Virus record (IMG/VR): IMGVR_UViG_3300038416_000738 | Source: a virus | Direction: 5' to 3' (one strand) | DNA length: 64,000 nt | Shown: positions 18,357 to 59,924 of the stretch, piece by piece | Numbering within the stretch: the first letter of the stretch is position 1 | Layout of the letters: each line of letters starts with the position of its first letter | The notes under the pieces: model-generated | What the model was told of the DNA's origin: nothing | The model's input: only the letters and a program-made list of their open reading frames with translations | The model's database searches: none | Made by a program: the position numbers and the translations under genes

Positions 18357-20228
18357 ATGCAGGTGCAGCTTGAGAGGTACGGCGCGCCCGGCGCGGCGGG
18401 CGCAGTGAAGTTCTCGCTCAAGAAGGGCAGCGAGGGGGACTTCCGATGCCTGCTCTCACCGTACGGGTGGCAGGCGAGCGTGCCGTCTTCGAAAGCGCCG
18501 GACGTGAAGGTCCTGTCGCAGCGCGATTTCCTCGTGCCCGTGCACGCCGCGATGCTCGCATGCGCGGCGCTCTCGAAGGCGAGGGTCGAGATCTTTGCCC
18601 CGAAGGAAGTCCAAGCGGCGGTCCGCTCCGCGGCGTGGAAGTGTAACGCGCCGAAGCTTTACGCTTACCAGAAGCAGGGCGCGGAGTTCCTCCGATCGCG
18701 GCGCCGGGCCATCCTTGCCGACGACATGGGCACCGGCAAGACGGCGCAGTCGCTTTCGGCGCTCGACGCCTCGAAGGCCGCGCTCATCGTCGTGCCTCCC
18801 GTCGTGCTCGGATCTTGGTTCGAGGAGGCGAGGCGCTGGCGACCCGATCTCACGGCGCGGATCTGGCAGCCCCCCTACGGGATCTGGGCGGAGCCGGGCG
18901 AGATCTGCATCATCGCCTATTCGAAGCTCCCCTATGAGAGCATCGAGTCGAGACTCAGGTGCCCTACGTGCGGCCGCCTCTCGGCATCCTATGTGGACGA
19001 GGCGAGCGTGCTCGTCGAGGAGTTCGTCGAGGAAGACCGCCGCGGGATCGAGAAGAAGATCCAGAGGTGGTCGTACCGATGTGACAAGGATCATGGGGGA
19101 CTCTGCGGCCAAGGTTTCACGGCGCGCGACGACGAGGCCGAGGTCGAGCACATCTGGATCGGGCCGCGGCCGAAGCACGCCGTGCAGCTCATCGTCGACG
19201 AGGCCCACTGGTGCAAGAACCGAAATGCGAAGCGCACGATCGGCGTGCGGACGGTCGCGGCGCAGTGCTGGACGACCTGGATGCTCACGGGAACGCCGCT
19301 CCTCAACGAGCCGATGGAGCTTTGGACGCTCTGCCAATCCTTCCCTGGTCAAGGAAAAGGCAGCTCGGGCGCGAGCGACGCGTTCGGGTCCTTCCCGAAG
19401 TTCGTCGAGATGTTCCACGGCAAGAGGAAGTTCTGGGGCGGCTACGACTGGGCCGTGGACGACGAGGTCGAGCCCGAAGCCCGAGCACGCTTCGCGACGC
19501 TCGCGCTCCGGCGCACGAGGCAGGAGGTGCTCCCAGAGCTGCCAGAGAAGACGCGACGTTTCCTCGAGATCGCGGTCGACGTGCGCGGCATGCCGCACTG
19601 GGGCGAGCCGGAGAACTCCGCGCTCGGCAGACTGAGCGACGATGAGGTGCTCGGGGCCTGCGCACCCGAGGGATCCCTGTCCACGGTGCGCCGCGAGCTT
19701 GCCTCGCGGAAGCTCGACTCGCTCGAGCAGCTCGTCGAGGAGTACGAGGCGACGGGCGAGCCCGTCGTGGTGTTTAGTTACCACAAGGATCCGATCAAGC
19801 AGCTCGGCGCGCGCAAGGGTTGGGCGTGGATCACGGGCGAGACGAACGATCGCGACCGGACGGCGCACGTCGCGGCTTTTCAGGCGGGAAAACTCAAGGG
19901 CCTCGCCGGGACCATCGGCGCGATGGGTGTCGGGGTCACGCTCACGCGGTCCTCGAACATGCTATTCCTCGACCGCGACTTCGTCCCGGCGAACAACCTC
20001 CAGGCGGAGGACCGCGAGATGCGGATCGGACAGAAGCGCGCCGTGCTCATCACGATCCTCGTGACGGATCACCCCGTCGACAGGCGGGTGCGCGCCGTGC
20101 TCGAGAAGAAGGAGAGGTTGCTCGAGGCGCTCGATCTCTCCGAGGGATCGAATGTGCGCGCGGAGGTTGCGTCCCACAAGGGCAGAATAAAGATGGCTGG
20201 CAAGGTCCCTGATTCGGAGGTCTCATGA
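18357..20228 (+). CDS. SNF2-family helicase with Cys-cluster insertion
   Basis: 'LADDMGTGKT' motif I, 'LIVDEAHWCKN' motif II, helicase C-terminal motifs; CPTCG...RCDKDHGGLCGQ insertion between. Confidence 0.85.
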   Translation: MQVQLERYGAPGAAGAVKFSLKKGSEGDFRCLLSPYGWQASVPSSKAPDVKVLSQRDFLVPVHAAMLACAALSKARVEIFAPKEVQAAVRSAAWKCNAPKLYAYQKQGAEFLRSRRRAILADDMGTGKTAQSLSALDASKAALIVVPPVVLGSWFEEARRWRPDLTARIWQPPYGIWAEPGEICIIAYSKLPYESIESRLRCPTCGRLSASYVDEASVLVEEFVEEDRRGIEKKIQRWSYRCDKDHGGLCGQGFTARDDEAEVEHIWIGPRPKHAVQLIVDEAHWCKNRNAKRTIGVRTVAAQCWTTWMLTGTPLLNEPMELWTLCQSFPGQGKGSSGASDAFGSFPKFVEMFHGKRKFWGGYDWAVDDEVEPEARARFATLALRRTRQEVLPELPEKTRRFLEIAVDVRGMPHWGEPENSALGRLSDDEVLGACAPEGSLSTVRRELASRKLDSLEQLVEEYEATGEPVVVFSYHKDPIKQLGARKGWAWITGETNDRDRTAHVAAFQAGKLKGLAGTIGAMGVGVTLTRSSNMLFLDRDFVPANNLQAEDREMRIGQKRAVLITILVTDHPVDRRVRAVLEKKERLLEALDLSEGSNVRAEVASHKGRIKMAGKVPDSEVS

Positions 20229-49299: not shown

Positions 49300-49677
49300 G
49301 TGACCATGAATCGCTTGAAGCCGGCCCTACCGCCTGGCACGCACTACGCGGACAGCAAGAACATCGTCGTGAGGTCGATCGTCGGTACGGACTCGAACAC
49401 CACGTGGCGCGACAACATTCGGAACCTCTTGAAGACGGCGCGCGGCGGAGCCGACAGCGAGTGGCGGCGATTCGGTTACGGTCTCCTTTATGACGTGGTG
49501 GGCTGGACACCGGGCCAATACGCGCTCGGGATGTACGCGGCGCTCCACGACTGCGGGGTGATCCTCTCCAAGAAAAAGTTTGGCGAGAAGGACCTCTCCC
49601 GGATCCGGGAGAAACTCGAGCAAGCAGGTTTCAATCTCGTCCCCGAATGGAAAGCGGCGAGTGGTGGAGCGAAATGA
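49300..49677 (+). CDS. hypothetical protein (partner of nucleotidyltransferase)
   Basis: ORF track; stop overlaps NTase start. Confidence 0.45.
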   Translation: MTMNRLKPALPPGTHYADSKNIVVRSIVGTDSNTTWRDNIRNLLKTARGGADSEWRRFGYGLLYDVVGWTPGQYALGMYAALHDCGVILSKKKFGEKDLSRIREKLEQAGFNLVPEWKAASGGAK

Positions 49678-50624
49678 ATTTCGACGTCGCGTCCCGCACG
49701 ATCCTCCTCGTCCGCCACGGCTCGCACGCCTACGGCATGAATACACCTACGTCGGACTTGGATTCGAAGGGCGTGTGCATCGAGCCGAAGGCATTTCATT
49801 TCGGGTTCCTTCACACGTTCGAGCAAGAGACGCGCGAGGCGAAGAAAGGCGCCGCGGAGGACCGCGTCGTTTACTCGCTCAAGAAGTTCGCGGGGCTCGC
49901 GGCCGAGTGCAACCCGAACATCATTGAGGTGCTCCACGTGGCGGACGAGCACGTGCTCGCTATCGACGCGTTCGGCGAGGAGCTTCGCGCGATGCGGCAC
50001 GCTTTCGTCTCCGCGAAGGCGCGCTGGACATTTGCGGGTTACGCGCACTCGCAATTGAAGCGCATCAAGACGCACCGCAAGTGGCTCGTCGACCCGCCGA
50101 AGGCGCCGCCGACCCGCAAGGAGTTCGGCCTCTCCGAGGTGAGCAAGATCTCGAAGGCCGAGTTGGGCGCGTTCGACGCCGCCGTGGATCAGTCCCTCGA
50201 GATCGAACTCTCGCGCGAGCTGATGACGGTCTTCACGCGCGAGAAGCAGTACCAAGCGGCCAAGAGGCACTACGACCAGTTCGAGAACTGGAAGAAGACG
50301 CGCAACGCCGCGCGCGCCGAACTCGAGGCGAAGTTCGGGCTCGACACGAAGCACGCCGCGCACCTCGTGAGGCTCCTCCGCATGTGCAAGGAGATCATGA
50401 CGACTGGCGAGGTCGTCGTGAAGAGGCCCGACGCCGCGGAGTTTCTCTCCATCCGGGCCGGGGCATGGACCTACGACCAGATCGTCGAGTACGCCGAGAG
50501 GACCGAGGCCGAGTGCGCCGCACTTTACGATGCAGGCGCGACCGTCCGCCACGAACCCGACCGCATCGCCATCGACGCCGCGATCGTGGGCATGACTGAA
50601 CGTTACCTCGCCGCATACGGTTGA
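49674..50624 (+). CDS. Pol-beta-superfamily nucleotidyltransferase
   Basis: 'HGSHAYGMNTPTSDLDSKG' = GS-X10-D-x-D active-site signature of MNT/CD-NTase-type nucleotidyltransferases; 317 aa. Confidence 0.6.
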   Translation: MNFDVASRTILLVRHGSHAYGMNTPTSDLDSKGVCIEPKAFHFGFLHTFEQETREAKKGAAEDRVVYSLKKFAGLAAECNPNIIEVLHVADEHVLAIDAFGEELRAMRHAFVSAKARWTFAGYAHSQLKRIKTHRKWLVDPPKAPPTRKEFGLSEVSKISKAELGAFDAAVDQSLEIELSRELMTVFTREKQYQAAKRHYDQFENWKKTRNAARAELEAKFGLDTKHAAHLVRLLRMCKEIMTTGEVVVKRPDAAEFLSIRAGAWTYDQIVEYAERTEAECAALYDAGATVRHEPDRIAIDAAIVGMTERYLAAYG

Positions 50625-50800: not shown

Positions 50801-51478
50801 GTGAGCGAGTCCGTGCAGAAGAAAAGTGGTGGGTTTCTCGATAAGTTGAAGGGTCTCGTCGCGGAAGAAGTTCCCGACCGCCCCACACGCCAGACGCCGG
50901 TGCCGGCGGCGCCGGCACACGCCGTGCAACACGTGGGACAGGATCATTACGATCCCGCGCCGGGGAGCGCCCTCGTGGGTGCTGATCCTGCGGCGCTCGC
51001 GAAGCTCGAGGCGCGTCTCCAGGCCGCGTGTCCCGCTCCGTACGCCAAGTTCATGGAGCAGTACGATTCGCTCAAGGAAGACATCTCCGACGAGCGCACG
51101 CGCTTCAAGGTCGCCTTGAAGACGACGCACACGACCGGGGTCGAGATCTCCGGAGCCCTCGAGACGCTCCTGTCGGCGATGGACTCCGCGAAGCACGAGT
51201 TCGAGCACTCGTGGGACGAGAACCGGAAGAAGCGCGTCGCCGAGTCCGACCAATCGATCTCGTCCTCCGACGAACTCATCAAGTCGAGCGAGGAGCAGAT
51301 CAAAGCCATCCAGGAGAAGATCGCCGCGCTCCGCACGAAGCGCGACTCGGACGTCGCGAACGCGAAGGAGGAGATCCGTAGGCTCGACGGAATTCGCGGC
51401 GGTTTCGAAGCTGCGCACCACCAGGTGACCTCGCGCCTCTCGAACCTCAAGGAGCGCCTCGCGGCGCTGGGGACCTGA
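50801..51478 (+). CDS. hypothetical coiled-coil protein
   Basis: GTG start; S/E/K-rich heptads. Confidence 0.5.
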   Translation: MSESVQKKSGGFLDKLKGLVAEEVPDRPTRQTPVPAAPAHAVQHVGQDHYDPAPGSALVGADPAALAKLEARLQAACPAPYAKFMEQYDSLKEDISDERTRFKVALKTTHTTGVEISGALETLLSAMDSAKHEFEHSWDENRKKRVAESDQSISSSDELIKSSEEQIKAIQEKIAALRTKRDSDVANAKEEIRRLDGIRGGFEAAHHQVTSRLSNLKERLAALGT

Positions 51479-51479
51479 C

Positions 51480-52523
51480 ATGGCTGAATCGACGATCTCG
51501 AAGCTGCAGAAGAAGGAACTCTTCGGCCAGAACCTCATCACGCTGATCCTCGTGGGTGCGCTCGCGGCCGCAGGGATCTACTGGTGGGGATCGATCGTGC
51601 CGTTCCTCGTTGACGCGGCGACGAACACCCTGAAGCTCATCGGCCTATGCGCCGCGATTGGACTCGTGGGCTACGCTGTCCTCGACAAGCGCATCCGGAC
51701 GCTCTTCCTCTACGGATACCGTTCGCTGACGCGCTGGCTCACGGGGCAGTTCGTCGAGATCGACCCGATCGGTATCCTGAACACGTACGTGTCGCGGCTC
51801 GAGGAGCGACTCGCCGAGATGGACAAGTCCATCGGGAGCCTTCGCGGCCAGCGCGACAAGCTCAAGGCCACGATCGAGAAAAACGAGAGCGATCGAATCC
51901 ACAACCTTCAGCTCGCGCAGCAGGCGCAGAAGCACTCGAAAGACAACGAAGCCGAGATGAAGCAGGAGCTTGCGCTCCGCGCGCGGCAGGCGGGACGTCT
52001 TCAGAAGTCGAACATGACACTCGGCAATCTCCTCGAGCGCATGGAAGTGCTCTTGAAGGCGCTCCAGAAGATGCGTGCGGCTTCGGCGCTCCTTTGCGAA
52101 GACATCAAGGGCGAGGTCGAGGTGAAGACCGCCGAGCGAAAGGCGCTTCTCGCTGGTTACGGTGCCTTCACGAAGGCGCAGGCGATCATGGAGGGCGGGG
52201 GCGCGGAGCGCGAGATGTTCGATCTCACGATGGAGAAGCTCACCGACGATTACGCGAACAAGATGGGCGAGATCGAGACGTTCCTCGACATGTCGAAGGG
52301 CTTCATCAACGGTATGGATCTCGACCAGGGCATCTACGAGGAGGACGCGCTCGCGCAGCTCAAGGCTTGGGAGGAGAAGGGCAGCGCCCTCCTCAACACG
52401 AAGCCGAACGTCCGCGTGGACGCGGCCCCCGGCGTCCGCATCACCGAGGTTGCGGGCGAAGCGGAAGAAGCGGCGCCCGACAGCTTCTCCGAGCTTTTCA
52501 AGAACAACGACGCGAAACGGTAA
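51480..52523 (+). CDS. membrane-anchored coiled-coil protein
   Basis: two N-terminal TM helices then ~250 aa coiled coil. Confidence 0.6.
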   Translation: MAESTISKLQKKELFGQNLITLILVGALAAAGIYWWGSIVPFLVDAATNTLKLIGLCAAIGLVGYAVLDKRIRTLFLYGYRSLTRWLTGQFVEIDPIGILNTYVSRLEERLAEMDKSIGSLRGQRDKLKATIEKNESDRIHNLQLAQQAQKHSKDNEAEMKQELALRARQAGRLQKSNMTLGNLLERMEVLLKALQKMRAASALLCEDIKGEVEVKTAERKALLAGYGAFTKAQAIMEGGGAEREMFDLTMEKLTDDYANKMGEIETFLDMSKGFINGMDLDQGIYEEDALAQLKAWEEKGSALLNTKPNVRVDAAPGVRITEVAGEAEEAAPDSFSELFKNNDAKR

Positions 52524-52539
52524 CGACGCGAAACGGTAA
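52508..52539 (+). repeat. 16-bp tandem duplication CGACGCGAAACGGTAA x2 spanning the stop codon
   Basis: counted directly. Confidence 0.85.
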
Positions 52540-52550
52540 GGACATCCATC

Positions 52551-54329
52551 ATGGCGACTCGAATCAAACCCCTGCCCAAGATCATCGCGGCCGTGGCCAT
52601 CGCTGCGGGCCTTTTCTTCGGGATCCGGTTCCTCGTGAACGCGCAGCCCGGCCACGAAGCTTCCGTGCCGAAGACGGCCGCGCTCCCGACGCTCGACGAG
52701 CATGTCTCGAAGGCCGCTGTGCCCGAAACGCCGCTGCCGGGCGCCGCGCTCGCGGGCAAAGGCACGGACGTGCGCATGATGGTGTGGGCGTGGAACGCGC
52801 AGATGGGACTCCTGTACGCGAACGGCGGCGCCGACACGACGCAGGGCTCGCTCATGGCCGGCCACAACGTGAACCTCCACTTCACCCGCGAGAACGACAC
52901 GAGCAAGATGGCGGCGCAGCTCATGGCCCTCGCGACCGATGTCGCGAAAGGTGGCGAGTCGAAGAACGGCGTCCACTTCATCACGCTCATGGGTGACGGC
53001 ACGCCGAGCTGGTTCGCCGGACTCAACGCGGACCTGAAGAAGATCTGCGCGGACTGCACCGCCGAGACCGTCGGCGTCCTCGGCTACTCGCGCGGCGAAG
53101 ACAAGTTCATGGGACCCGCGGAGTGGAAGTCGAATCCGAAGAAAGCCCAGGGCGCGCTCATCGCGGGCGTCATCCGCGACGGGGACTGGAACGCCGCGAT
53201 GAAATGGGCTGGTGACAACGGGATCCCGAACAACCCGGACGAGAAGACGTACGACCCGGACGCGCTCAACTGGGTGAGTGTGGACGACTACCTCGAGGCC
53301 CCGAAGAAATACATCCTCGGCGTCTGCGAAGACCGTCCCGTCGTGCACGCCGGCCACAAGACCGGGCAGACGAAGAACGTGTGCGTGAACGGCGTCGTCA
53401 CGTGGACCCCCGGCGACGTGAACGTCGCGCAGCAGAAGGGCGGCCTCGCGAGCATCGTCTCGACGAAGGAGTACCGGAGCCAGATGCCGTGCGCGCTCAT
53501 CGGAATCCGGAAGTGGGATCGCGCGCACAAGGACGTCGTCGAGGGGATCCTCCAGGCGGCCTTTGACGGCGGCGACCAGGTGCGGAGCTACCCGCGCGCG
53601 CTCGACCGCGGCGGCGAGATCAGCGCGGCGGTCTACAAGGAGGAGAGCGGCGCGTACTGGGTCAAGTACTTCAAGGGCGTCACCGAGAACGACAAGACGG
53701 GCCTGCCGGTGCCGCTCGGCGGATCGTCGGTCTCCGATCTCGCCGACGACATGCAGGTCTTCGGTCTCACGGCAGGCTCCACAAACCTTTTCGCCGCGAC
53801 GTACACGACGTTCGGCGACATCGCCGTCCAGCAGTACCCGAAGCTCGTGCCGAACTACCCGCCTGTCGCGGACGTGCTCGACACGTCCTATGTCGAGGAT
53901 CTCGCGAAGAAGGCCCCAGTGATGACGACGTCCGCGGACGTGGCCGTCTACAAGAAGGATGCGGCGATCACGGAAGTCGTCTCGAAGAAGAGCTGGTCGA
54001 TCACGTTTCAGACGGGGAGCGCGGCCTTCACGCCGGAAGCGCAGAAGACGCTCGACGCACTTGAGAAGGACCTCGTCATCACGGACCTCATGGTGGAGAT
54101 CGACGGTCACACGGACAACACCGGCGACGCCACGGGGAACAAGACGCTTTCCGAGGCGCGTGCCCAGGCGGTGAAGGCGTGGCTCATGAAGCAGTCGACG
54201 ACGAACTTTCCCGCCGACCGCTTCAGCGTCAAATCGTTCGGGCAGGACAAGCCCGTCGCGTCGAACGACACGGAGACGGGTCGCGCGAAGAACCGCCGCG
54301 TCGACGTCATCATGGGGTCGGGGAACTGA
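52551..54329 (+). CDS. membrane-anchored protein with C-terminal OmpA-like domain
   Basis: N-terminal TM; C-terminal '[18 protein letters not shown]...[10 protein letters not shown]' OmpA/MotB signature; central ~400 aa domain unassigned (possibly SBP-like). Confidence 0.75.
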
Positions 54330-54721
54330 TGGCGATCGAGCCGCACGTCCTCTCCGTGTCGACGGCCGTGTCGAGCCGTGCTCGCGAGCTTCGGAGCTAC
54401 GGCAAGTGGCTCGAGGACGCAAGCATCGGGGGTCAAACGGAAGCTGTCGCGCGCGACGTCGCTCCCGTGCTTCTCGCGGCGGCGGACGTGATCGACGCGG
54501 CGCTGGGAGCGGCGCTGGCTAAGCATCGTGAACCCGCAGCGCGCCGCGAAGTGAAGCTCGTCGGCGTGGCGGACATCCCGACTCAGGACATGCGCTACGA
54601 CCTCCGCGCGCTCGGCATCGACGTCGGGAAGTTGACCGACGTGGAAGTCCGTCGCGAATTCGAAGACCGTTTCGGTTCGATCTTTCCCAAGAACCCCAAT
54701 ATTCCTCATCCGGATCGGTGA
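54329..54721 (+). CDS. hypothetical protein
   Basis: TGATG overlap. Confidence 0.45.
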   Translation: MAIEPHVLSVSTAVSSRARELRSYGKWLEDASIGGQTEAVARDVAPVLLAAADVIDAALGAALAKHREPAARREVKLVGVADIPTQDMRYDLRALGIDVGKLTDVEVRREFEDRFGSIFPKNPNIPHPDR

Positions 54722-54725
54722 AACG

Positions 54726-55013
54726 ATGAAGAATCCCATCGAGAGGCTCGAGGAGAGCGTTGCAATCTTGCTTCCGGGCGCGAAAGCGTCGCTCGATCGT
54801 CCGAAGAATCTCGAGAGCGGCCATTGGTGGCTCGACATCTCCGAGAGCGGGCGCCACGCTGTCGTGGAGTGGCGCCCGGGCAAAGGCTTTGGCGTCAGTC
54901 TTCTTGGTAAGAACGACGGTTACGGTGAGGGGCCCGACGAGGCGTTCACCGAGAGCCAAGAGGATGACGTTCTCAAGAGAATCTTCGCGCTCCTCACCCG
55001 GAAGGAGGCGTGA
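54726..55013 (+). CDS. hypothetical protein
   Basis: ORF track. Confidence 0.4.
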   Translation: MKNPIERLEESVAILLPGAKASLDRPKNLESGHWWLDISESGRHAVVEWRPGKGFGVSLLGKNDGYGEGPDEAFTESQEDDVLKRIFALLTRKEA

Positions 55014-55298
55014 ATGAAGACCGCGAAGCTCTTTGAGCGGATGAACGCAGGCACGGAGGAGTCACGCCTACTCCGTGAGGCCTACGAGGCCGGCGCCGTT
55101 GCAGCAGCCGACCACGCTGACCAGTACAACGGATCAACGACACACGAATACTGCCTTGGCGACTGCATCCTCAGCAAGATGAACATCCGGAAACGTCGTC
55201 CGAGGAAGAACGAGCGCAAGATCCTCTCCCACAAAGAGCTTCTCGAAGTCCTCGGTCCGCGGCGTCGGGGCAAAGTGATCGTGTACCTCCCGAGGTGA
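55014..55298 (+). CDS. hypothetical protein
   Basis: ORF track. Confidence 0.4.
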   Translation: MKTAKLFERMNAGTEESRLLREAYEAGAVAAADHADQYNGSTTHEYCLGDCILSKMNIRKRRPRKNERKILSHKELLEVLGPRRRGKVIVYLPR

Positions 55299-55525
55299 AT
55301 GCGATGAGCGAATCGAACGAAAGCCGGACGCATGAACTCGAGAAGGACGCCCTCACGGGAGACCGTCAAGCCGTGATGAGGCTCGTGTCGGACTACCGAC
55401 TCGTCCGCGCGAAGATCGAATGGGTGAAGAATCTCCAGTATCGCGACGGCACGATCGACGGCGTGAACGCGCATCAGTTCTTCAGCGAGGTAGAGGACAT
55501 CTTGGTCGGGGAGGACGACGAGTGA
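55295..55525 (+). CDS. hypothetical protein
   Basis: ORF track. Confidence 0.4.
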   Translation: MNAMSESNESRTHELEKDALTGDRQAVMRLVSDYRLVRAKIEWVKNLQYRDGTIDGVNAHQFFSEVEDILVGEDDE

Positions 55526-55698
55526 AGCTCACGGCTCGAGAGAAGCGCGCGATCTCGGAACTCGAGAAGCTCGCGAAGCGATGGCCGAAGAAGCTCGTTC
55601 TTTTCTCCTGGTCGGGAACCCTTCATGTTCTCAAGCCGGGAAAATCTCGCACGATGGGACAGGCCATCGTTGCCACTTTCGGCAGCATATCCTCATGA
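55522..55698 (+). CDS. hypothetical small protein
   Basis: GTGA overlap. Confidence 0.3.
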   Translation: MKLTAREKRAISELEKLAKRWPKKLVLFSWSGTLHVLKPGKSRTMGQAIVATFGSISS

Positions 55699-55958
55699 CA
55701 CTCTATGAACCTCAGGGCTATACGCCCGAAGAGCTAAAGCGACACGGCGAGATGATTGCAGACCGCCTCGCGCTGACACCCGAGCAGGTCAAATGCCTCG
55801 TGCCCGAGCTTCGCAACGCGCTCGCCCCCGCAGTGATGGGCATGGGGACGGATGGTCCGCGCACGGAGGAAGACGTTCTCGACATCCGGCGCGCCTTCGC
55901 CCGCATCGTCGCGCTCGCGAACGCGCTCGCAGTGAGATGTTCTTCGGGGGAGCGATAG
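55695..55958 (+). CDS. hypothetical protein
   Basis: ATGA overlap. Confidence 0.4.
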   Translation: MTLYEPQGYTPEELKRHGEMIADRLALTPEQVKCLVPELRNALAPAVMGMGTDGPRTEEDVLDIRRAFARIVALANALAVRCSSGER

Positions 55959-56200
55959 TGGTGAAGACGTACCAAGCCGGGAAGCTGTCGCCCGAAGAGG
56001 CGCGCATGAAGACGAACGAGTACTTCGTCCTCGGCCTTTATGAATGCTTCGCGCTCGGTAACCCCGCCGGCGCGGAGGTCTTCTGGCGTGCCGCGCTGGA
56101 TGTTTGGGAGCACCGTGGCTTTGCCGCGTCGAGACGACGGTACCTGCAGTGGTTCGAGAACGCCCTTGCGAGAGGAGGGTGGGATGACTGCTGCGATTGA
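55937..56200 (+). CDS. hypothetical protein
   Basis: alt GTG 55958. Confidence 0.4.
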   Translation: MFFGGAIVVKTYQAGKLSPEEARMKTNEYFVLGLYECFALGNPAGAEVFWRAALDVWEHRGFAASRRRYLQWFENALARGGWDDCCD

Positions 56201-56600
56201 AAAGCCTTCGTGGCCGTGGTGGGCCGTCGCTGGTGGGCTCGGGGTTTACTATTTCAGCAAATATTTTGGAGTGAAGCAGATGCAAGAGATTCTCAAGGAG
56301 TTGGAGGAGACGCGCTCGGCTCGTGACGCAGCGGTCGCGACCGCGGGGCAAGCGATGGTGCTCGTCGCGAGCCTCACGGCGCTCGAGAAGCTCTTGCGCG
56401 GCAAGCTCAAGGCCGTAGAGGACGCGCTGAAGAAAGAGCGCGAGGACTCTATGGAGGCGCACCACAAGAACTTCGAGGCGCGCCAGAACCTCGAGAAGGC
56501 GAACGAGGATTGGAAACGCAAGCATGCCGACCTCGAAGCGCGCTGCGCCGAACTCGAAGCGAAGCTCAAGGAGAAGAAAGTCAAAGTTCCTGCCCGATGA
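56184..56600 (+). CDS. membrane-anchored coiled-coil protein
   Basis: N-terminal TM then coiled coil. Confidence 0.5.
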   Translation: MTAAIEKPSWPWWAVAGGLGVYYFSKYFGVKQMQEILKELEETRSARDAAVATAGQAMVLVASLTALEKLLRGKLKAVEDALKKEREDSMEAHHKNFEARQNLEKANEDWKRKHADLEARCAELEAKLKEKKVKVPAR

Positions 56601-56821
56601 AAGAAGAGATGTTCGAGGCTTTCCACGTGATCGAGCTGGCGCCCGGTACCTATTTCTGCGGTTCGCAGGACGCGGACAAGAAAGTCCGGTGGGCTTCCGT
56701 CGGCACTCCTCTGCTCGCTAAACGCGCGGATCCCGCACGCGGCGATCTGACGGAAATCCAGAAGGTCTTTCCCCAAGCACGATTCGTTTACGTCCGCACC
56801 ACCTGGAGCCTCGGTTCATGA
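56597..56821 (+). CDS. hypothetical protein
   Basis: ATGA overlap. Confidence 0.4.
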   Translation: MKEEMFEAFHVIELAPGTYFCGSQDADKKVRWASVGTPLLAKRADPARGDLTEIQKVFPQARFVYVRTTWSLGS

Positions 56822-57597
56822 GCTTCCGCGACGCGTGGATCCCGAATGGTCGCGTTTCGAAACGCGTTCACCTGATTTTCGGGGCAGCGACCGTCGTTCT
56901 GCTCATCGCGGCTTGGGCGATGCGCCCGGCTTTCTTGCCCGGTCCTCTGGACGTCGTGCATGCGTTTCCGAACCTTGTCGACCAAGGTCTCTTGCCGCAG
57001 CTCTTCGTCTCGCTCTCGACGAACTTCCAGGCCATCGGTCTGTCGTGCCTCCTCACGCTGCCGCTCGCGTACCTCACGGTGCTGCCGGCGGTGCGCCCGT
57101 TCGTCCGCGCGCTCTCGAAGATGCGTTTCCTCGGCCTCACGGGCTTCGTCGTTCTTTTCACGATCCTCTTTGGCGGGGGCCACGGACTGAAGGTTGCGCT
57201 CCTCGTCTTCGGCATGGGCGTCTTCCTCGTCACGAGCCTCTACGATGTCGTCGAGGCGATCCCGCGCGAGGAGTTCGACCACGCGCGGACGCTCCGGATG
57301 GGGCCGTGGGGGAGCGTCGTCGAGGTCGTCGTGCTCGGCCACCTCGACGCCGTGATCGACGCGGTTCGCCAGAACGCGGCGATGGGTTGGGTGATGCTCA
57401 CGCTCGTCGAGGGGCTCGTGCGGTTCGAGGGCGGCCTCGGGTCGATGATGCTCGCTGAGGACAAGCACATCCGCCTCGACTCGGTCTTCGCGATCCAGAT
57501 CGTCGTCCTCGGCGTCGGCGTCGCGCAGGACTTCGCCTTCGTGTGGCTCAAGAAGATCCTCTGCCCGTACGCGAGCCTTACCTTGGAGAGGCAATGA
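56818..57597 (+). CDS. ABC transporter permease (TauC/SsuC-like, BPD_transp_1)
   Basis: 6 TM helices; 'EAIPREEFDHARTLRMGPW' EAA-loop motif characteristic of binding-protein-dependent permeases. Confidence 0.8.
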   Translation: MSFRDAWIPNGRVSKRVHLIFGAATVVLLIAAWAMRPAFLPGPLDVVHAFPNLVDQGLLPQLFVSLSTNFQAIGLSCLLTLPLAYLTVLPAVRPFVRALSKMRFLGLTGFVVLFTILFGGGHGLKVALLVFGMGVFLVTSLYDVVEAIPREEFDHARTLRMGPWGSVVEVVVLGHLDAVIDAVRQNAAMGWVMLTLVEGLVRFEGGLGSMMLAEDKHIRLDSVFAIQIVVLGVGVAQDFAFVWLKKILCPYASLTLERQ

Positions 57598-57929
57598 CGC
57601 CCGAGCATGAATTGTTCTTCGGCTGCCTTGGCGTGCTCGTCGTCAGCGCGGGCCTCTTCGCCGGTATCGTTGTCTGGGCGCTGAAGGGCGGCGGCAAACC
57701 CATCAAGGGTCTGCCGCGAGCGCCGAGCTACGCGTTCACGTGCGTCTTCGGCGCGCTCTGGAACGCGATCATCGTGAGGTCGCTGCCGGGCACCATTTTC
57801 TGCTTGGCGCTCGCGGGACTATTCCAATTGGGAAGTGGGTGGTCGTACCGGCGCCAGACGTGGACCGTGGCATCGGTCATCGCGGGAGTTGCGATCGTGT
57901 TCGACATCTGGCTCGTGAGGTCCCTGTGA
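57594..57929 (+). CDS. hypothetical membrane protein
   Basis: 3 TM helices. Confidence 0.45.
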   Translation: MTPEHELFFGCLGVLVVSAGLFAGIVVWALKGGGKPIKGLPRAPSYAFTCVFGALWNAIIVRSLPGTIFCLALAGLFQLGSGWSYRRQTWTVASVIAGVAIVFDIWLVRSL

Positions 57930-58180
57930 CGTTTGTCGACGAGCTTGCCCAGGCCGCGCTGCGCGGGTTCTTCGGCGACGCCGAGGGCTTCAAGAACATG
58001 GATCAGGACGCCTCGCGCAAGGCCGCTGCGCGCGAGGTGCGGAAGGTCCTCACCCGGTACTTCTCGTGGTGGGCGCCGCAACCAGAAGTCACGAAGAAGT
58101 CAGAAGTCCATCGTCCCATCATCGCTAAACAGATATCCGCCCACACGAACGGCGTGGGCGGGAAGAAGGAGCACTCATGA
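57926..58180 (+). CDS. hypothetical protein
   Basis: GTGA overlap. Confidence 0.35.
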   Translation: MTFVDELAQAALRGFFGDAEGFKNMDQDASRKAAAREVRKVLTRYFSWWAPQPEVTKKSEVHRPIIAKQISAHTNGVGGKKEHS

Positions 58181-58545
58181 TCAAGCACCAAGTCCACTCG
58201 AAGTTCAAAGTCTTCATCTCTGACGCGGAGAGTGAGGACGCCGTGGAACAACTCTTCCGTCAAGCGGACGTCTTCACCAAGGACAACAGCGTCGCGCCGA
58301 AGAGCATCGGTGTCGAATACCTCGAAGGACAGAAGCGCCTCATCCTCAGCATCGGGTATCGCGACGACGAGCCGGGGTACCCCGTGAACCTGAAGTCCGT
58401 GCTCCTCGGCAAGCTCGCGATGAACTCGTCCACGATCGAGGCAGCGTTGGAAAAGGCGGCGGACGAGACGGACAACGTCATCTGCCACGAGTTCTTCGTC
58501 ACCGAGGGCGGCGACTTCGTGATGGTGCTCCTCTCGCACGGGTGA
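58177..58545 (+). CDS. hypothetical protein
   Basis: ORF track. Confidence 0.45.
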   Translation: MIKHQVHSKFKVFISDAESEDAVEQLFRQADVFTKDNSVAPKSIGVEYLEGQKRLILSIGYRDDEPGYPVNLKSVLLGKLAMNSSTIEAALEKAADETDNVICHEFFVTEGGDFVMVLLSHG

Positions 58546-58546
58546 C

Positions 58547-58864
58547 ATGAAACTGCGGAAAGAAAAAGACTTCGTTCCGACGTTGCTTCTCGTGTTTGGA
58601 CCACCCCGCGTCGTCTTCTCCATGGACGAGTGGGAGGAGGAAGTGGATCGGCAGAAGCTCCTCGCCGCTGTCGGCCTGCTTCGCCGTTGGGACGGCCGGA
58701 CATGGGGCTGGTCGATGGCCGTGAGGGCGAAGGAAGACGGGCGCGAGGGCAAGCAGGTGTGGCACTGGTCGAGCAGCGGCAATTTCATGGAATCGAAACA
58801 CGTTGGTGTTGAAGATTTCGAGCGCGCGTGGGCGGAAGTCACAGGCAAGAGGCGCGCGTCATGA
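58547..58864 (+). CDS. hypothetical protein
   Basis: ORF track. Confidence 0.4.
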   Translation: MKLRKEKDFVPTLLLVFGPPRVVFSMDEWEEEVDRQKLLAAVGLLRRWDGRTWGWSMAVRAKEDGREGKQVWHWSSSGNFMESKHVGVEDFERAWAEVTGKRRAS

Positions 58865-59118
58865 AATGTCCGCGATGCGATATCGAATTGGTGACGAAGT
58901 ATGGCCGTGAGGTGCACTGGGATGATCGGGATTGCGTCGAACATCTCCAGCGACACCTCCGCGCCCTTCGCGCTGAAGTCGCACGCAAGGACGCGGCGCT
59001 CGAGAAGCTCCTGGACTTGATGGACAAATGGAGCCCCGATACGGCGATTCACATTCTGCACGCAGCCCTCGCCCCGGCTGCGGAGTCGGAGTTCAAAGGG
59101 GTGCCGGTGACGCCGTGA
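58861..59118 (+). CDS. hypothetical protein with N-terminal CxxC
   Basis: ATGA overlap. Confidence 0.4.
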   Translation: MKCPRCDIELVTKYGREVHWDDRDCVEHLQRHLRALRAEVARKDAALEKLLDLMDKWSPDTAIHILHAALAPAAESEFKGVPVTP

Positions 59119-59924
59119 ATCACGAGTACAAGGACGTCCTCATCAGCATCCAAAACGTGGGCCTGTCGTACGGCGGCAAGCCGATCCTCGAGGATCTGTC
59201 CGCGGAGGTGCGCGACATCGTTCGGCCTGATGTCGTGACGGGGCAGGTCATCGGCGTGCTCGGGCCGAGCGGGATCGGTAAGACGCAGCTCTCGCGGATT
59301 ATGACGGGGCTTCAAGAGCCGACGTCGGGCGAGATCCTCGTGGGCGGCAAGAAGGTCGCGGCCGGCGTCGTCGGTTACGTCGCGCAGAATTACCCGCTCC
59401 TTCGCCACAAGACCGTCCTCGGCAACCTGAAGGTGGCGGCGCGCCGCGCCGGCGCGTCGGGCGAGGGGGCGGCGCAGAAATCGAACGACATGCTCTCGAA
59501 GTTCGGGCTCGCGGACAAGGCGCTCGATTTCCCCGCGGAGCTTTCCGGCGGCCAGCGGCAACGCGTCGCCATCGCGCAGCAGCTCCTCTGCTCCGAACAC
59601 TTCCTCATCCTCGACGAGCCGACGACGGGTCTCGATCCCATCATGAAGGACAAGGTGTGCGAACTCATCAAGCAGGTTGCATCGCTCTCAGAAGAGAACA
59701 CGATCTTCGTCGTGACGCACGACATCGCCGCGATCCTCACCATCGCCGATCACCTCTGGCTCCTCGGGCGAACGCGCGACGGCGAGGGACGCTCGCTCGG
59801 CGCGAAGATCCTCCACACGTACGATCTCATCGAGCGCGGCCTGGCGTGGCAGGAGCGCCCGCAAGACCTGCCCGCGTTTGCGGAGATGCAAAGGGAAGTG
59901 CGCGAGCGCTTCGCGACGCTATGA
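59115..59924 (+). CDS. ABC transporter ATP-binding protein (TauB/SsuB-like)
   Basis: Walker A 'GPSGIGKT', signature 'LSGGQRQR', Walker B 'LILDEPT', H-loop 'VTHD'. Confidence 0.85.
   Translation: MNHEYKDVLISIQNVGLSYGGKPILEDLSAEVRDIVRPDVVTGQVIGVLGPSGIGKTQLSRIMTGLQEPTSGEILVGGKKVAAGVVGYVAQNYPLLRHKTVLGNLKVAARRAGASGEGAAQKSNDMLSKFGLADKALDFPAELSGGQRQRVAIAQQLLCSEHFLILDEPTTGLDPIMKDKVCELIKQVASLSEENTIFVVTHDIAAILTIADHLWLLGRTRDGEGRSLGAKILHTYDLIERGLAWQERPQDLPAFAEMQREVRERFATL

What the first reader, a model, noticed from the sequence alone, without database searches (positions are those of the whole stretch)
50801..54329. Coiled-coil protein, 2-TM coiled-coil protein and OmpA-anchored large periplasmic protein in a row
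Three consecutive envelope-targeted proteins follow the NTase cassette. A 16-bp duplication spans the stop codon between the 2-TM protein and the next gene. The OmpA-like peptidoglycan-binding C-terminus is fused to a ~400-aa unassigned domain that may be a solute-binding fold. The function could be superinfection exclusion, an envelope-spanning complex, or a CBASS-like membrane effector.
Basis: inference. Interest (0 to 1): 0.5.

Follow-up and report, generated by a model that had tools for sequence, protein, structure and literature searches.

The report
Huge-phage PspA-like plus wall-anchored ABC importer cassette
The three genes are the front half of a five-gene cassette (two membrane-associated coiled-coil proteins, one resembling the membrane-repair protein PspA, plus a cell-wall-anchored nutrient-binding protein with its ABC transporter) that huge phages share with bacteria, and it is not a defence or CBASS effector.

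Summary
The three ORFs, the OmpA domain, the two TM helices and the exact 16-bp tandem duplication are all at the stated coordinates.

The unassigned ~400-aa domain of the third protein (P3) is a NitT/TauT-type solute-binding fold (TauA/NrtA/CmpA/SsuA-like). Its permease (56818-57597) and ABC ATPase (~59115-59924) lie downstream and were missed, because strain-specific small ORFs split the operon.

The 2-TM protein (P2) belongs to a large family (1456 clusters at 50% identity). Its cytoplasmic part is remotely PspA/Vipp1 (ESCRT-III)-like. This support is moderate, not decisive.

The first protein (P1) has no TM or signal peptide. It is the conserved partner gene found directly upstream of P2.

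The order P1-P2-P3-permease-ATPase is complete in 37 of 46 IMG/VR huge-phage contigs and in a Lak megaphage. It also occurs in bacterial chromosomes, mostly Bacteroidota. Ralstonia jumbo phage RsoM2USA has only P1-P2.

The NTase neighbour is an RlaP-family enzyme and is adjacent only in this strain. PADLOC gives no defence-system match.

A similar operon type was described computationally in 2024 (PMC11237479). I found no description of the phage-borne, AAA+-less arrangement. The function is inferred, not shown.

The parts
50801..51478 (+). P1: 225-aa cytoplasmic protein. It has a short conserved N-terminal motif (FLDKLKGLVAEE), a disordered linker, then a helical and coiled-coil domain. It is the conserved partner gene directly upstream of P2.
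   Evidence: ORF and RBS. No TM segment. jackhmmer finds 103 homologues in the fetched loci, 92 of them the ORF immediately upstream of P2. Alignment A5. No Pfam, NCBIfam or PDB family beyond coiled-coil noise.
51480..52523 (+). P2: 347-aa inner-membrane protein. It has an N-terminal 2-TM hairpin (about residues 18-69). The cytoplasmic part is a long helical hairpin (96-152 / 157-238) plus a third helix (242-306), remotely PspA/Vipp1 (ESCRT-III)-like. A disordered tail ends in a conserved F-x-x-L-F motif.
52508..52539 (+). Exact tandem duplication of 16 bp (CGACGCGAAACGGTAA x2) spanning the P2 stop codon. Lineage-specific, with no coding effect.
   Evidence: also in L140; absent from L133, whose P3 is 97% identical.
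52551..54329 (+). P3: 592-aa protein. N-terminal membrane helix (residues 7-30, signal anchor or signal peptide), a low-confidence linker, a NitT/TauT-type solute-binding domain (about 70-455) and a C-terminal OmpA-like peptidoglycan-binding domain (about 473-591).
   Evidence: Pfam OmpA E 1.7e-20. Model with pLDDT 84, pTM 0.82. Foldseek hits TauA, NrtA, CmpA, SsuA and OmpA-like domains. hhalign 99.6% to a cellular NMT1+OmpA protein. The OmpA motif residues D522, N530, L533, R537 and A538 are invariant in 36 homologues.
54329..56821 (+). Run of small strain-specific ORFs inserted between P3 and the permease: 54329-54721, 54726-55013, 55014-55298, 55295-55525, 55581-55958, 56040-56600 and about 56597-56821. 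They are linked by short gaps or ATGA overlaps.
   Evidence: No family hits. Not conserved in other loci (g4 found only in the window). The content of this gap differs even in L133, whose P3 is 97% identical.
56818..57597 (+). ABC importer permease (259 aa, multi-TM), distantly TauC/SsuC/SaoP-like.
   Evidence: NCBIfam SaoP 4.9e-12, SsuC 1.7e-3, TauC 0.018, all below cut-off. phrog_6743. Homologue found downstream of P3 in 44 of 46 IMG/VR loci. The cellular counterpart hits PF00528 BPD_transp_1 at 7.6e-16. Hydropathy.
57594..59118 (+). Second run of small inserted ORFs between the permease and the ATPase. It includes a small multi-TM protein at about 57594-57929.
   Evidence: The permease-to-ATPase gap is 1431 nt here, against a median of 44 nt in IMG/VR loci.
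59115..59924 (+). ABC transporter ATP-binding subunit. The likely start is the GTG at 59115, which overlaps the upstream stop codon. The alternative start is the ATG at 59028.
   Evidence: PF00005 E 2e-26. NCBIfam TauB-, SsuB- and PhnT-like, below cut-offs. Found downstream in 43 of 46 IMG/VR loci. Start codon read.

Best explanation
The three genes are the first three genes of a five-gene cassette, P1-P2-P3-permease-ATPase. The window appears to be part of a huge phage, and the phage shares this cassette with bacterial chromosomes.

Shown:
- P3 is a NitT/TauT-type substrate-binding protein. It has a membrane helix at its N-terminus and an OmpA-like peptidoglycan-binding domain at its C-terminus.
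- A TauC/SsuC-like permease and an ABC ATPase follow on the same strand. In this strain they are separated from P3 by inserted small ORFs.
- P2 is a 2-TM inner-membrane protein with a long cytoplasmic helical hairpin. P1 is its constant upstream partner.

Inferred:
- P3 sits in the periplasm bridging the inner membrane and the cell wall, and hands a small solute to the permease and ATPase for import.
- P2, probably a divergent PspA/Snf7-type ESCRT-III-like protein, and P1 assemble on the cytoplasmic face of the same membrane and stabilise or remodel it.
- The phage expresses the whole unit during its long infection to keep the host inner membrane intact and energised while importing a solute. 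The ligand is unknown. The many invariant acidic and aromatic residues of P3 would suit a cationic or zwitterionic compound.
For: Domain identities:
- OmpA, E 1.7e-20.
- SBP fold: Foldseek E 8.5e-12 to TauA, also NrtA, CmpA and SsuA. hhalign 99.6% over the full length to a cellular protein that hits Pfam NMT1 and OmpA.
- ABC ATPase, PF00005. Permease related to BPD_transp_1 proteins.

P2 as PspA-like:
- The Foldseek top 10 are all Vipp1/PspA.
- 13 of 44 family members give collinear sub-threshold PF04012 hits.
- Public records name homologues 'phage shock protein A'.

Cassette conservation:
- All five genes in order in 37 of 46 IMG/VR contigs, 28 of which exceed 100 kb.
- All five in metagenome contigs of up to 620 kb and in Prevotella megaphage Lak-B5. 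In huge phage LR756500, P1, P3, the permease and the ATPase are found, but P2 is not detected.
- All five as a tight operon in cellular genomes, for example next to priA in L006 and in Tenacibaculum xiamenense L052.

Coupling: the genes are joined by 1-nt spacing or overlapping start and stop codons across the whole 50.8-59.9 kb stretch.

Precedent: Ravi et al. 2024 (PMC11237479) describe operons combining PspA, TM-Snf7, PBPB+OmpA, a permease and an ABC ATPase, and propose a link between membrane remodelling and solute transport.

Plausibility: RsoM2USA, which carries P1-P2, has a 270-min latent period (abstract).
Against: - No experiment exists for any member of the cassette.
- The window's permease has no Pfam BPD_transp_1 hit at E<0.01.
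- Some cellular genomes have P1-P2 alone, or P1-P2-P3 with no adjacent transporter (Lewinella cohaerens). Transport may therefore not be obligatory for the P1-P2(-P3) function.
- The ligand is unknown, and no riboswitch gives a clue.
- That the window itself is phage rests on resemblance to IMG/VR contigs and on gene content. No structural hallmark gene was found within the 64 kb.
Confidence: 0.55

Rival explanations
1. The core machine is the trio P1-P2-P3. P3 is not primarily a transport component. It acts as a periplasmic, wall-anchored ligand sensor or scaffold that positions or regulates the cytoplasmic P1-P2 assembly across the inner membrane. The ABC permease and ATPase are an optional add-on.
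For: P1-P2 and P2-P3 junctions are always tight (medians 6.5 and 30 nt). P3-permease and permease-ATPase junctions are often broken by insertions. At least 12 cellular loci with enough flank have P1-P2-P3 but no detectable permease or ATPase nearby, for example Lewinella cohaerens DSM 23179. P2 is the most conserved component between cells and phages (E about 1e-90, against 1e-20 for P3).
Against: In phage contigs the permease and ATPase are almost always retained despite heavy gene turnover around them (44 and 43 of 46), which argues that they are needed. Detection of divergent permeases in the cellular loci was by jackhmmer from phage seeds and may have missed some. Transporter genes could also lie elsewhere in those genomes.
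Confidence: 0.2
2. It is a plain auxiliary nutrient-uptake gene set, an ABC importer for a sulfonate-, nitrate-, bicarbonate- or HMP-like solute. P1 and P2 are generic coiled-coil membrane proteins that do no ESCRT-III-like membrane remodelling, for example a scaffold or an assembly factor.
Confidence: 0.15
3. It is a superinfection-exclusion or anti-phage module: a CBASS-like membrane effector signalled by the upstream nucleotidyltransferase, or a Zorya-like wall-anchored sensor.
For: The location is the envelope. The OmpA domain resembles that of ZorB (PADLOC 3.8e-12). An NTase gene lies 176 nt upstream.
Against: The NTase is RlaP family with no CD-NTase or PADLOC hit. It is next to the cassette only in this strain (other upstream neighbours). 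P2 has no PADLOC hit, no ZorA/MotA-like partner was seen among the 10 local proteins scanned, and P1's only ZorA match is a weak coiled-coil hit (ZorA 4.1e-4). The same cassette sits among housekeeping genes (priA, ychF, folK) in bacterial chromosomes.
Confidence: 0.05

Closest known systems
Operons of PspA / TM-anchored Snf7 with a PBPB+OmpA solute-binding protein, permease and ABC ATPase (Ravi et al. 2024, mSystems, PMC11237479; example OGG56892.1, Candidatus Handelsmanbacteria)
   Same: The same set of parts: a membrane-anchored ESCRT-III-superfamily-like protein, a signal/TM + SBP + OmpA fusion, an ABC permease and an ABC ATPase in one operon. The same proposed logic applies, with OmpA binding the wall, the SBP binding the transported solute, and a link between membrane remodelling and transport. 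Their Bacteroidetes example also has a 'coiled-coil protein reminiscent of PspA' beside TM-Snf7, which resembles P1.
   Different: The gene order differs: theirs is PspA -> SBP-OmpA -> permease -> ATPase -> TM-Snf7 -> AAA+. Here there is no AAA+ ATPase and no separate canonical PspA among the neighbours I scanned. Here the cassette is on a huge-phage-like element and is split by inserted ORFs.
PspA / Vipp1 (IM30), bacterial ESCRT-III superfamily (PF04012; PDB 4whe, 7o3w, 6zvr)
   Different: P2 is anchored by two TM helices instead of the amphipathic helix alpha0. Scores are below the Pfam gathering threshold. There are no PspB, PspC or PspF partners. Polymerisation is untested.
NitT/TauT-family ABC importers (TauABC, SsuABC, NrtABCD/CmpABCD, ThiXYZ)
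   Same: The SBP fold (TauA TM 0.77; NrtA and CmpA are of similar size), a TauC/SsuC-like permease and a TauB/SsuB-like ATPase.
   Different: The SBP is fused to an OmpA-like domain and has about 100 extra residues. Sequence identity to characterised SBPs is only 8-13%. The ligand is unknown. The window proteins fall below all NCBIfam cut-offs.
OmpA-like wall anchors of inner-membrane machines (MotB/PomB, TagL/TssL, YiaD, YfiB)
   Same: An N-terminal membrane anchor plus a C-terminal OmpA-like peptidoglycan-binding domain with the conserved D...R motif.
   Different: The intervening domain is a solute-binding protein, not a plug, linker or signalling domain.
pspA-like genes noted in other huge phages (Jug phages, next to terD, PMC12880540; RsoM2USA ORF54, PMC8504454)
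   Same: Huge phages carrying PspA-like genes. [quoted passage not shown]
   Different: Those reports do not describe the P1 partner or the SBP-OmpA/ABC transporter linkage. The Jug context (terD) is different.

Membership tests
OmpA-like peptidoglycan-binding domain (PF00691) | Profile match above the curated threshold | tested here: met
   73.6 bits against a cut-off of 27.2, E 1.7e-20, residues 485-582 covering profile positions 1-98 of 98. Foldseek finds OmpA-like domains at rmsd 1.8-2.0 A.
OmpA-like peptidoglycan-binding domain (PF00691) | Conserved Asp and Arg of the peptidoglycan (DAP)-binding motif TDxxG...NxxLSxxRA | tested here: met
   G519, T521, D522, G525, N530, L533, R537 and A538 are invariant in 36 homologues. 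Actual peptidoglycan binding cannot be tested with these tools.
NitT/TauT-type periplasmic substrate-binding protein (NMT1 / NMT1_2 clan) | Two-lobed class II SBP fold matching family structures | tested here: met
   Model with pLDDT 84. TauA 6ssy E 8.5e-12, TM 0.77 on the target. Also NrtA, CmpA, SsuA and a ThiY-like protein.
NitT/TauT-type periplasmic substrate-binding protein (NMT1 / NMT1_2 clan) | Sequence-profile membership (PF09084 / PF13379) | tested here: inconclusive
   The window protein has no Pfam hit in residues 36-475. It aligns over its full length (hhalign 99.6%, E 6.9e-24) with a cellular homologue that hits NMT1 at 2.9e-12.
NitT/TauT-type periplasmic substrate-binding protein (NMT1 / NMT1_2 clan) | Genetic linkage to a cognate permease and ABC ATPase | tested here: met
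   A permease lies downstream in 44 of 46 viral loci and an ATPase in 43 of 46. In the window they are at 56818-57597 and 59115-59924.
NitT/TauT-type periplasmic substrate-binding protein (NMT1 / NMT1_2 clan) | Binds a defined ligand and delivers it for uptake | not testable with these tools
   Needs ligand screening and transport assays.
PspA/IM30/Vipp1 (ESCRT-III superfamily) | PF04012 (or PF03357 Snf7) match above the gathering score | tested here: not met
   The window P2 has no hit at E<0.01. The best family members reach 23-27 bits against a cut-off of 33.9.
PspA/IM30/Vipp1 (ESCRT-III superfamily) | ESCRT-III-type helical hairpin core followed by further helices | tested here: inconclusive
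PspA/IM30/Vipp1 (ESCRT-III superfamily) | N-terminal amphipathic membrane-binding helix alpha0 | tested here: not met
   Two TM helices take its place.
PspA/IM30/Vipp1 (ESCRT-III superfamily) | Self-assembly into rings, rods or filaments on membranes | not testable with these tools
   Needs purification and electron microscopy.
PspA/TM-Snf7 + PBPB-OmpA + ABC transporter operon (Ravi et al. 2024) | Co-oriented genes for a TM-anchored ESCRT-III-like protein, an SBP+OmpA fusion, a permease and an ABC ATPase | tested here: met
.
PspA/TM-Snf7 + PBPB-OmpA + ABC transporter operon (Ravi et al. 2024) | Associated two-domain AAA+ ATPase and a separate canonical PspA | tested here: not met
   No AAA+ or PF04012 protein among the neighbouring ORFs scanned in the window or among the called genes of L001-L006.
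PspA/TM-Snf7 + PBPB-OmpA + ABC transporter operon (Ravi et al. 2024) | P2 is the same protein family as their 'SIG+TM+Snf7' (OGG56892.1 neighbourhood) | not tested
   The reference sequence could not be fetched with the tools.
CBASS | CD-NTase cyclase with an adjacent effector, conserved as a pair | tested here: not met
   The NTase is RlaP (PF10127, phrog_388) with no PADLOC hit. Adjacency is seen only in the window's strain.
Zorya / MotAB-like stator | MotA/ZorA-like multi-TM partner plus MotB/ZorB with an N-terminal plug-TM | tested here: not met
   Only the OmpA domain of P3 matches ZorB. P2 has no PADLOC hit, and P1's only ZorA match is a weak coiled-coil hit (ZorA 4.1e-4).

The most novel reading that the evidence does not exclude
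Huge phages of unrelated lineages carry their own ESCRT-III-like membrane machinery: the P1-P2 pair, usually wired to a wall-tethered ABC importer. The lineages are high-GC environmental phages such as this one, Lak megaphages of Prevotella, and the cultured Ralstonia jumbo phage RsoM2USA. The phage would use this machinery to repair, stabilise or reshape the host inner membrane during long infections. That would make it a viral take-over of bacterial membrane homeostasis by a previously uncharacterised TM-anchored PspA/Snf7 branch.
Probability: 0.3. Interest if true: 0.7.

Novelty: new variant of a known kind. Interest (0 to 1): 0.5.

Why it matters
If the inference is right, three things follow.

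1. The cassette links two fields that have so far met only in one comparative-genomics paper: bacterial ESCRT-III-like membrane remodelling and binding-protein-dependent transport.

2. Very large phages would be seen to invest in keeping the host envelope working. That would be a concrete example of what the 'extra' genes of huge phages are for.

3. The question becomes testable. P1-P2 occur in a cultured jumbo phage (RsoM2USA gp55-gp54). The full cassette occurs in cultured Tenacibaculum, and the P1-P2-P3 trio in cultured Lewinella.

The P2 family is large (1456 clusters at 50% identity). The window's P2 matched no Pfam, NCBIfam or PHROG model, so defining it would also improve annotation. 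For the window itself the practical result is a corrected annotation: an ABC importer with a wall-anchored binding protein plus two membrane-associated partners, not a defence effector.

Tried and rejected
- Nucleotide search of the three genes against 50,697 phage records: no match.
- Sequence searches of P2 against PDB, single sequence and profile: only coiled-coil noise.
This does not support the PspA reading.
- P1 against P2 as paralogues: hhalign 17%, so rejected.
- P1 family against Pfam and PDB: only coiled-coil matches.
- Sigma-70 promoter and terminator scan of 49.5-60.5 kb: nothing above shuffled expectation. Co-transcription therefore rests on spacing and overlaps.
- Rfam scan for a riboswitch that might reveal the ligand, in the window and in 11 cellular loci: nothing.
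- PADLOC scan for defence systems: only generic domains.
- Search for phage structural hallmark genes within the window: none found among 60 ORFs.
- Look-up of the exact P3 protein to learn the sample of origin: not on record.
- A crude NJ tree of P2 separates phage copies from the sampled cellular copies, which are mostly Bacteroidota (48 viral / 2 cellular / 3 viral / 80 cellular in leaf order). The cellular sample is biased and phage branches are long, so I draw no firm conclusion on the number of transfers.
- Whether the MAG contigs L037 (Chitinimonas) and L012 (Saprospirales) with phage-type P3 are cellular or mis-binned phage could not be settled.


Full report
**1. Observation**

The window is 63% G+C, and almost all plausible genes lie on the + strand.

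- P1, 50801-51478, starts at a GTG preceded by AAGGAGG.
- P2, 51480-52523, starts 1 nt after the P1 stop.
- P3, 52551-54329, starts 27 nt after the P2 stop and behind an AAGGA site. Its stop overlaps the ATG of the next ORF by 1 nt.

The '16-bp duplication' is an exact tandem repeat of CGACGCGAAACGGTAA at 52508-52523 and 52524-52539.

- Zero such matches occur in 100 shuffles.
- It is present in another contig of the same strain (L140), which may or may not be an independent assembly.
- It is absent from a relative whose P3 is 97% identical. That relative has a different intergenic spacer (L133).
- The first copy carries the stop codon, so the repeat changes no protein. It is a recent slippage event of no evident function.

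**2. What the three proteins are**

*P3.*

- The C-terminus is a clear OmpA-like domain (PF00691, E 1.7e-20). The peptidoglycan-binding motif residues are invariant in 36 homologues.
- An AlphaFold model built on those homologues (pLDDT 84, pTM 0.82) shows four parts: an N-terminal membrane helix (7-30), a low-confidence linker, a two-lobed alpha/beta domain (about 70-455) and the OmpA domain.
- Foldseek against the PDB matches the middle domain to NitT/TauT-family binding proteins. These are TauA (E 8.5e-12, TM 0.77 on the target), NrtA, CmpA, SsuA and HMP/thiamine-precursor binders.
- The phage-type family aligns end to end (hhalign 99.6%, E 6.9e-24) with a bacterial protein that hits Pfam NMT1 and OmpA.

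*P2.*

- Hydropathy and the model agree on two TM helices followed by a long hairpin (96-152 / 157-238) and a third helix (242-306).
- The positive charges flanking the TM pair put the coiled-coil part in the cytoplasm. This is my inference from the sequence.
- The family is large and sharply defined. It has 1456 clusters at 50% identity, nearly all 320-360 aa. The window protein matches no Pfam, NCBIfam or PHROG model.

Evidence for a PspA/ESCRT-III relationship:

- The Foldseek top ten are all Vipp1/PspA.
- 13 of 44 family members give collinear sub-threshold PF04012 matches, best E 3.9e-6.

Evidence against it:

- No PDB sequence-profile hit to PspA or Vipp1.
- 4% hhalign probability to a single PspA sequence.

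I treat 'remote PspA/Snf7-like' as likely, at about 0.65, but not established.

*P1.*

- It has no TM segment and no signal peptide.
- It has a short conserved N-terminal motif, a disordered linker and a helical, coiled-coil domain.
- It matches no known family and is not a paralogue of P2.

**3. The three genes are part of a five-gene cassette**

Downstream on the same strand lie a multi-TM protein distantly like TauC/SsuC/SaoP permeases (56818-57597) and an ABC ATPase (PF00005). The ATPase probably starts at the GTG at 59115, which overlaps the preceding stop.

Evidence that these five genes form a conserved unit:

- Homologues of P3 on metagenome contigs of 49-620 kb always show the order: about 230 aa, about 350 aa, about 595 aa with OmpA, about 258 aa, about 277 aa ABC ATPase.
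- In 46 IMG/VR viral contigs found with the P3 profile (28 of them over 100 kb, 15 over 200 kb), a permease follows P3 in 44 and an ATPase in 43. HMM searches find all five genes in order in 37.
- P1 homologues found by jackhmmer are the ORF immediately upstream of P2 in 92 of 103 cases.
- P1-P2 and P2-P3 junctions are tight (medians 6.5 and 30 nt). P3-permease and permease-ATPase junctions are often interrupted by more than 300 nt (15 of 44 and 13 of 43 loci).
- The window has the widest P3-permease gap in the set (2489 nt), and its permease-ATPase gap is 1431 nt. In an 82%-identical relative, ten genes separate the permease from the ATPase.
- The inserted ORFs differ even between relatives whose P3 proteins are 97% identical. 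They are joined to the cassette genes by ATGA/GTGA overlaps.
- I found no convincing promoter or terminator inside the stretch.
- The whole 50.8-59.9 kb region therefore looks like one transcription unit. That is inferred, not shown.

**4. Distribution**

In bacterial genomes:

- The P2 family is widespread. A single scan of species-representative genomes gave 556 confirmed matches. The best were mostly Saprospiraceae, Lewinella, Emticicia and Tenacibaculum (Bacteroidota), plus Calditrichota and a Chitinimonas MAG.
- One such locus lies between priA and a diacylglycerol kinase. It has the full five-gene operon, with Pfam NMT1+OmpA, BPD_transp_1 and ABC_tran. The cultured Tenacibaculum xiamenense has it too.
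- Of the 64 cellular loci with enough flank, 16 show P3 followed by a permease (an ATPase was also detected in 15 of these). A further 12-15 show P1-P2-P3 without an adjacent transporter (for example Lewinella cohaerens), and 19 show only P1-P2. Divergent transporters may have been missed.

Among deposited phage genomes:

- The full cassette is in Prevotella megaphage Lak-B5. P2 homologues are in all 15 Lak records.
- P1, P3, the permease and the ATPase are in the 462-kb uncultured phage LR756500.
- P1-P2 alone (gp55-gp54) are in the cultured 344-kb Ralstonia phage RsoM2USA.

The window itself carries FtsK-like, SNF2 helicase, Ku-like, DHFR, MazG-like and DNA methyltransferase genes and many ORFans, but no structural gene. 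Its identity as a huge phage is inferred from its close similarity to IMG/VR contigs.

**5. Mechanism**

Shown:

- The domain identities.
- The predicted topology features: the hydrophobic segments and modelled helices.
- The conserved gene order.

Inferred:

- P3 is anchored in the inner membrane by its N-terminal helix and to the wall by its OmpA domain. It binds a small solute and delivers it to the permease and ATPase.
- P2, with P1, forms an assembly on the cytoplasmic face of the same membrane that stabilises or remodels it.

Supporting context:

- Both halves are retained together in phages despite heavy local gene turnover. This argues that they work together and that the phage needs them, plausibly to keep the inner membrane intact and energised during long infections. 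RsoM2USA has a 270-min latent period (abstract).
- The ligand is unknown. The invariant residues of P3 are rich in Asp, Glu, Trp and Tyr, and include two invariant Cys. That would suit a cationic or zwitterionic ligand, but this is speculation.
- No riboswitch gives a hint.

The main rival reading is that P3 acts chiefly as a wall-anchored periplasmic sensor or scaffold for P1-P2. This is supported by the trio occurring without a transporter.

The defence, CBASS and superinfection-exclusion readings are poorly supported:

- The upstream NTase is RlaP family.
- It has no PADLOC hit.
- It is adjacent only in this strain.

**6. Comparison with what is known**

Ravi et al. 2024 (PMC11237479) described, from genome context alone, operons of the form PspA -> SIG+PBPB+OmpA -> permease -> ABC-ATPase -> SIG+TM+Snf7 -> AAA+. 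They proposed a link between membrane remodelling and solute transport.

The present cassette has the same parts list. It differs in three ways:

- A different gene order.
- A P1 partner instead of a separate canonical PspA.
- No AAA+ ATPase among the neighbours I scanned.

I could not test whether P2 equals their TM-Snf7 family.

Searches of the paper library found no description of this cassette in phages. A pspA-like gene next to terD has been noted in Jug phages.

**7. Verdict**

- Novelty: a new variant, phage-borne and lacking AAA+, of an operon type so far known only from computational work.
- Interest is moderate, 0.5. The cassette is conserved, unstudied and testable in cultured systems, but the mechanism is inferred and the PspA link is weak at sequence level.

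Noticed in passing
window 54329-56821 and 57594-59118; L133, L135, L136: The conserved cassette is being pulled apart by strain-specific small ORFs. These are chained to the cassette genes by ATGA/GTGA start-stop overlaps. The inserted genes differ between relatives whose P3 proteins are 97% identical, and in an 82%-identical relative ten genes separate the permease from the ATPase. The P3-permease and permease-ATPase junctions look like hot spots for gene insertion in this phage clade.
   Followed up: partly
window 52482-52523 (P2 C-terminus) and 50801-50870 (P1 N-terminus); alignments A2, A5: Both proteins carry a short conserved linear motif separated from the folded part by a disordered linker. 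In P2 it is a C-terminal F-x-x-L-F (FSELF here, YDNLFE in Bacteroidota). In P1 it is an N-terminal LKxLFxEE-like motif. These could be docking peptides for each other, for the transporter or for the membrane.
   Followed up: no
window 56040-56600 and 57594-57929: Two further small membrane proteins sit inside the split cassette: a TM + coiled-coil protein and a small multi-TM protein that starts on the permease's stop codon. Neither has a family hit, and neither was found in other loci.
   Followed up: partly
L139 (Prevotella phage Lak-B5, MK250024.1 about 275.6-283.0 kb); L137 (Ralstonia phage RsoM2USA gp55-gp54): The full five-gene cassette is present in Lak megaphages, and the P1-P2 pair in a cultured jumbo phage. 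Both are unannotated or 'hypothetical' in the records.
   Followed up: yes
window 49647-50624: RlaP-family nucleotidyltransferase (PF10127, phrog_388 E 5e-63) directly upstream of the cassette. It is not a CD-NTase and is adjacent only in this strain (also in L140).
   Followed up: yes
window 5298-7316, 18357-20228 and ORFs scanned: The rest of the window encodes an FtsK/SpoIIIE-like ATPase, an SNF2-type helicase, a Ku-like protein, dihydrofolate reductase, MazG-like pyrophosphatase and DNA methyltransferases among many ORFans. No capsid, portal or terminase gene was found in these 64 kb.
   Followed up: partly
L037 (Chitinimonas MAG contig) and L012 (Saprospirales MAG contig): Two contigs binned into bacterial MAGs carry the phage-type P3 (53% identity), unlike the divergent Bacteroidota type. 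In L012 the P3, permease and ATPase lie upstream on the opposite strand to P1-P2. Whether these contigs are cellular, prophage or mis-binned huge-phage fragments is unresolved.
   Followed up: partly
PDB 8qox_B ('Conserved membrane protein', 475 aa): This chain was the best PDB sequence hit of the P1 profile (E 4.7e-5, coiled-coil region 337-391). It also appeared weakly for the P2 profile (E 0.39). This is probably coiled-coil similarity and was not examined.
   Followed up: no
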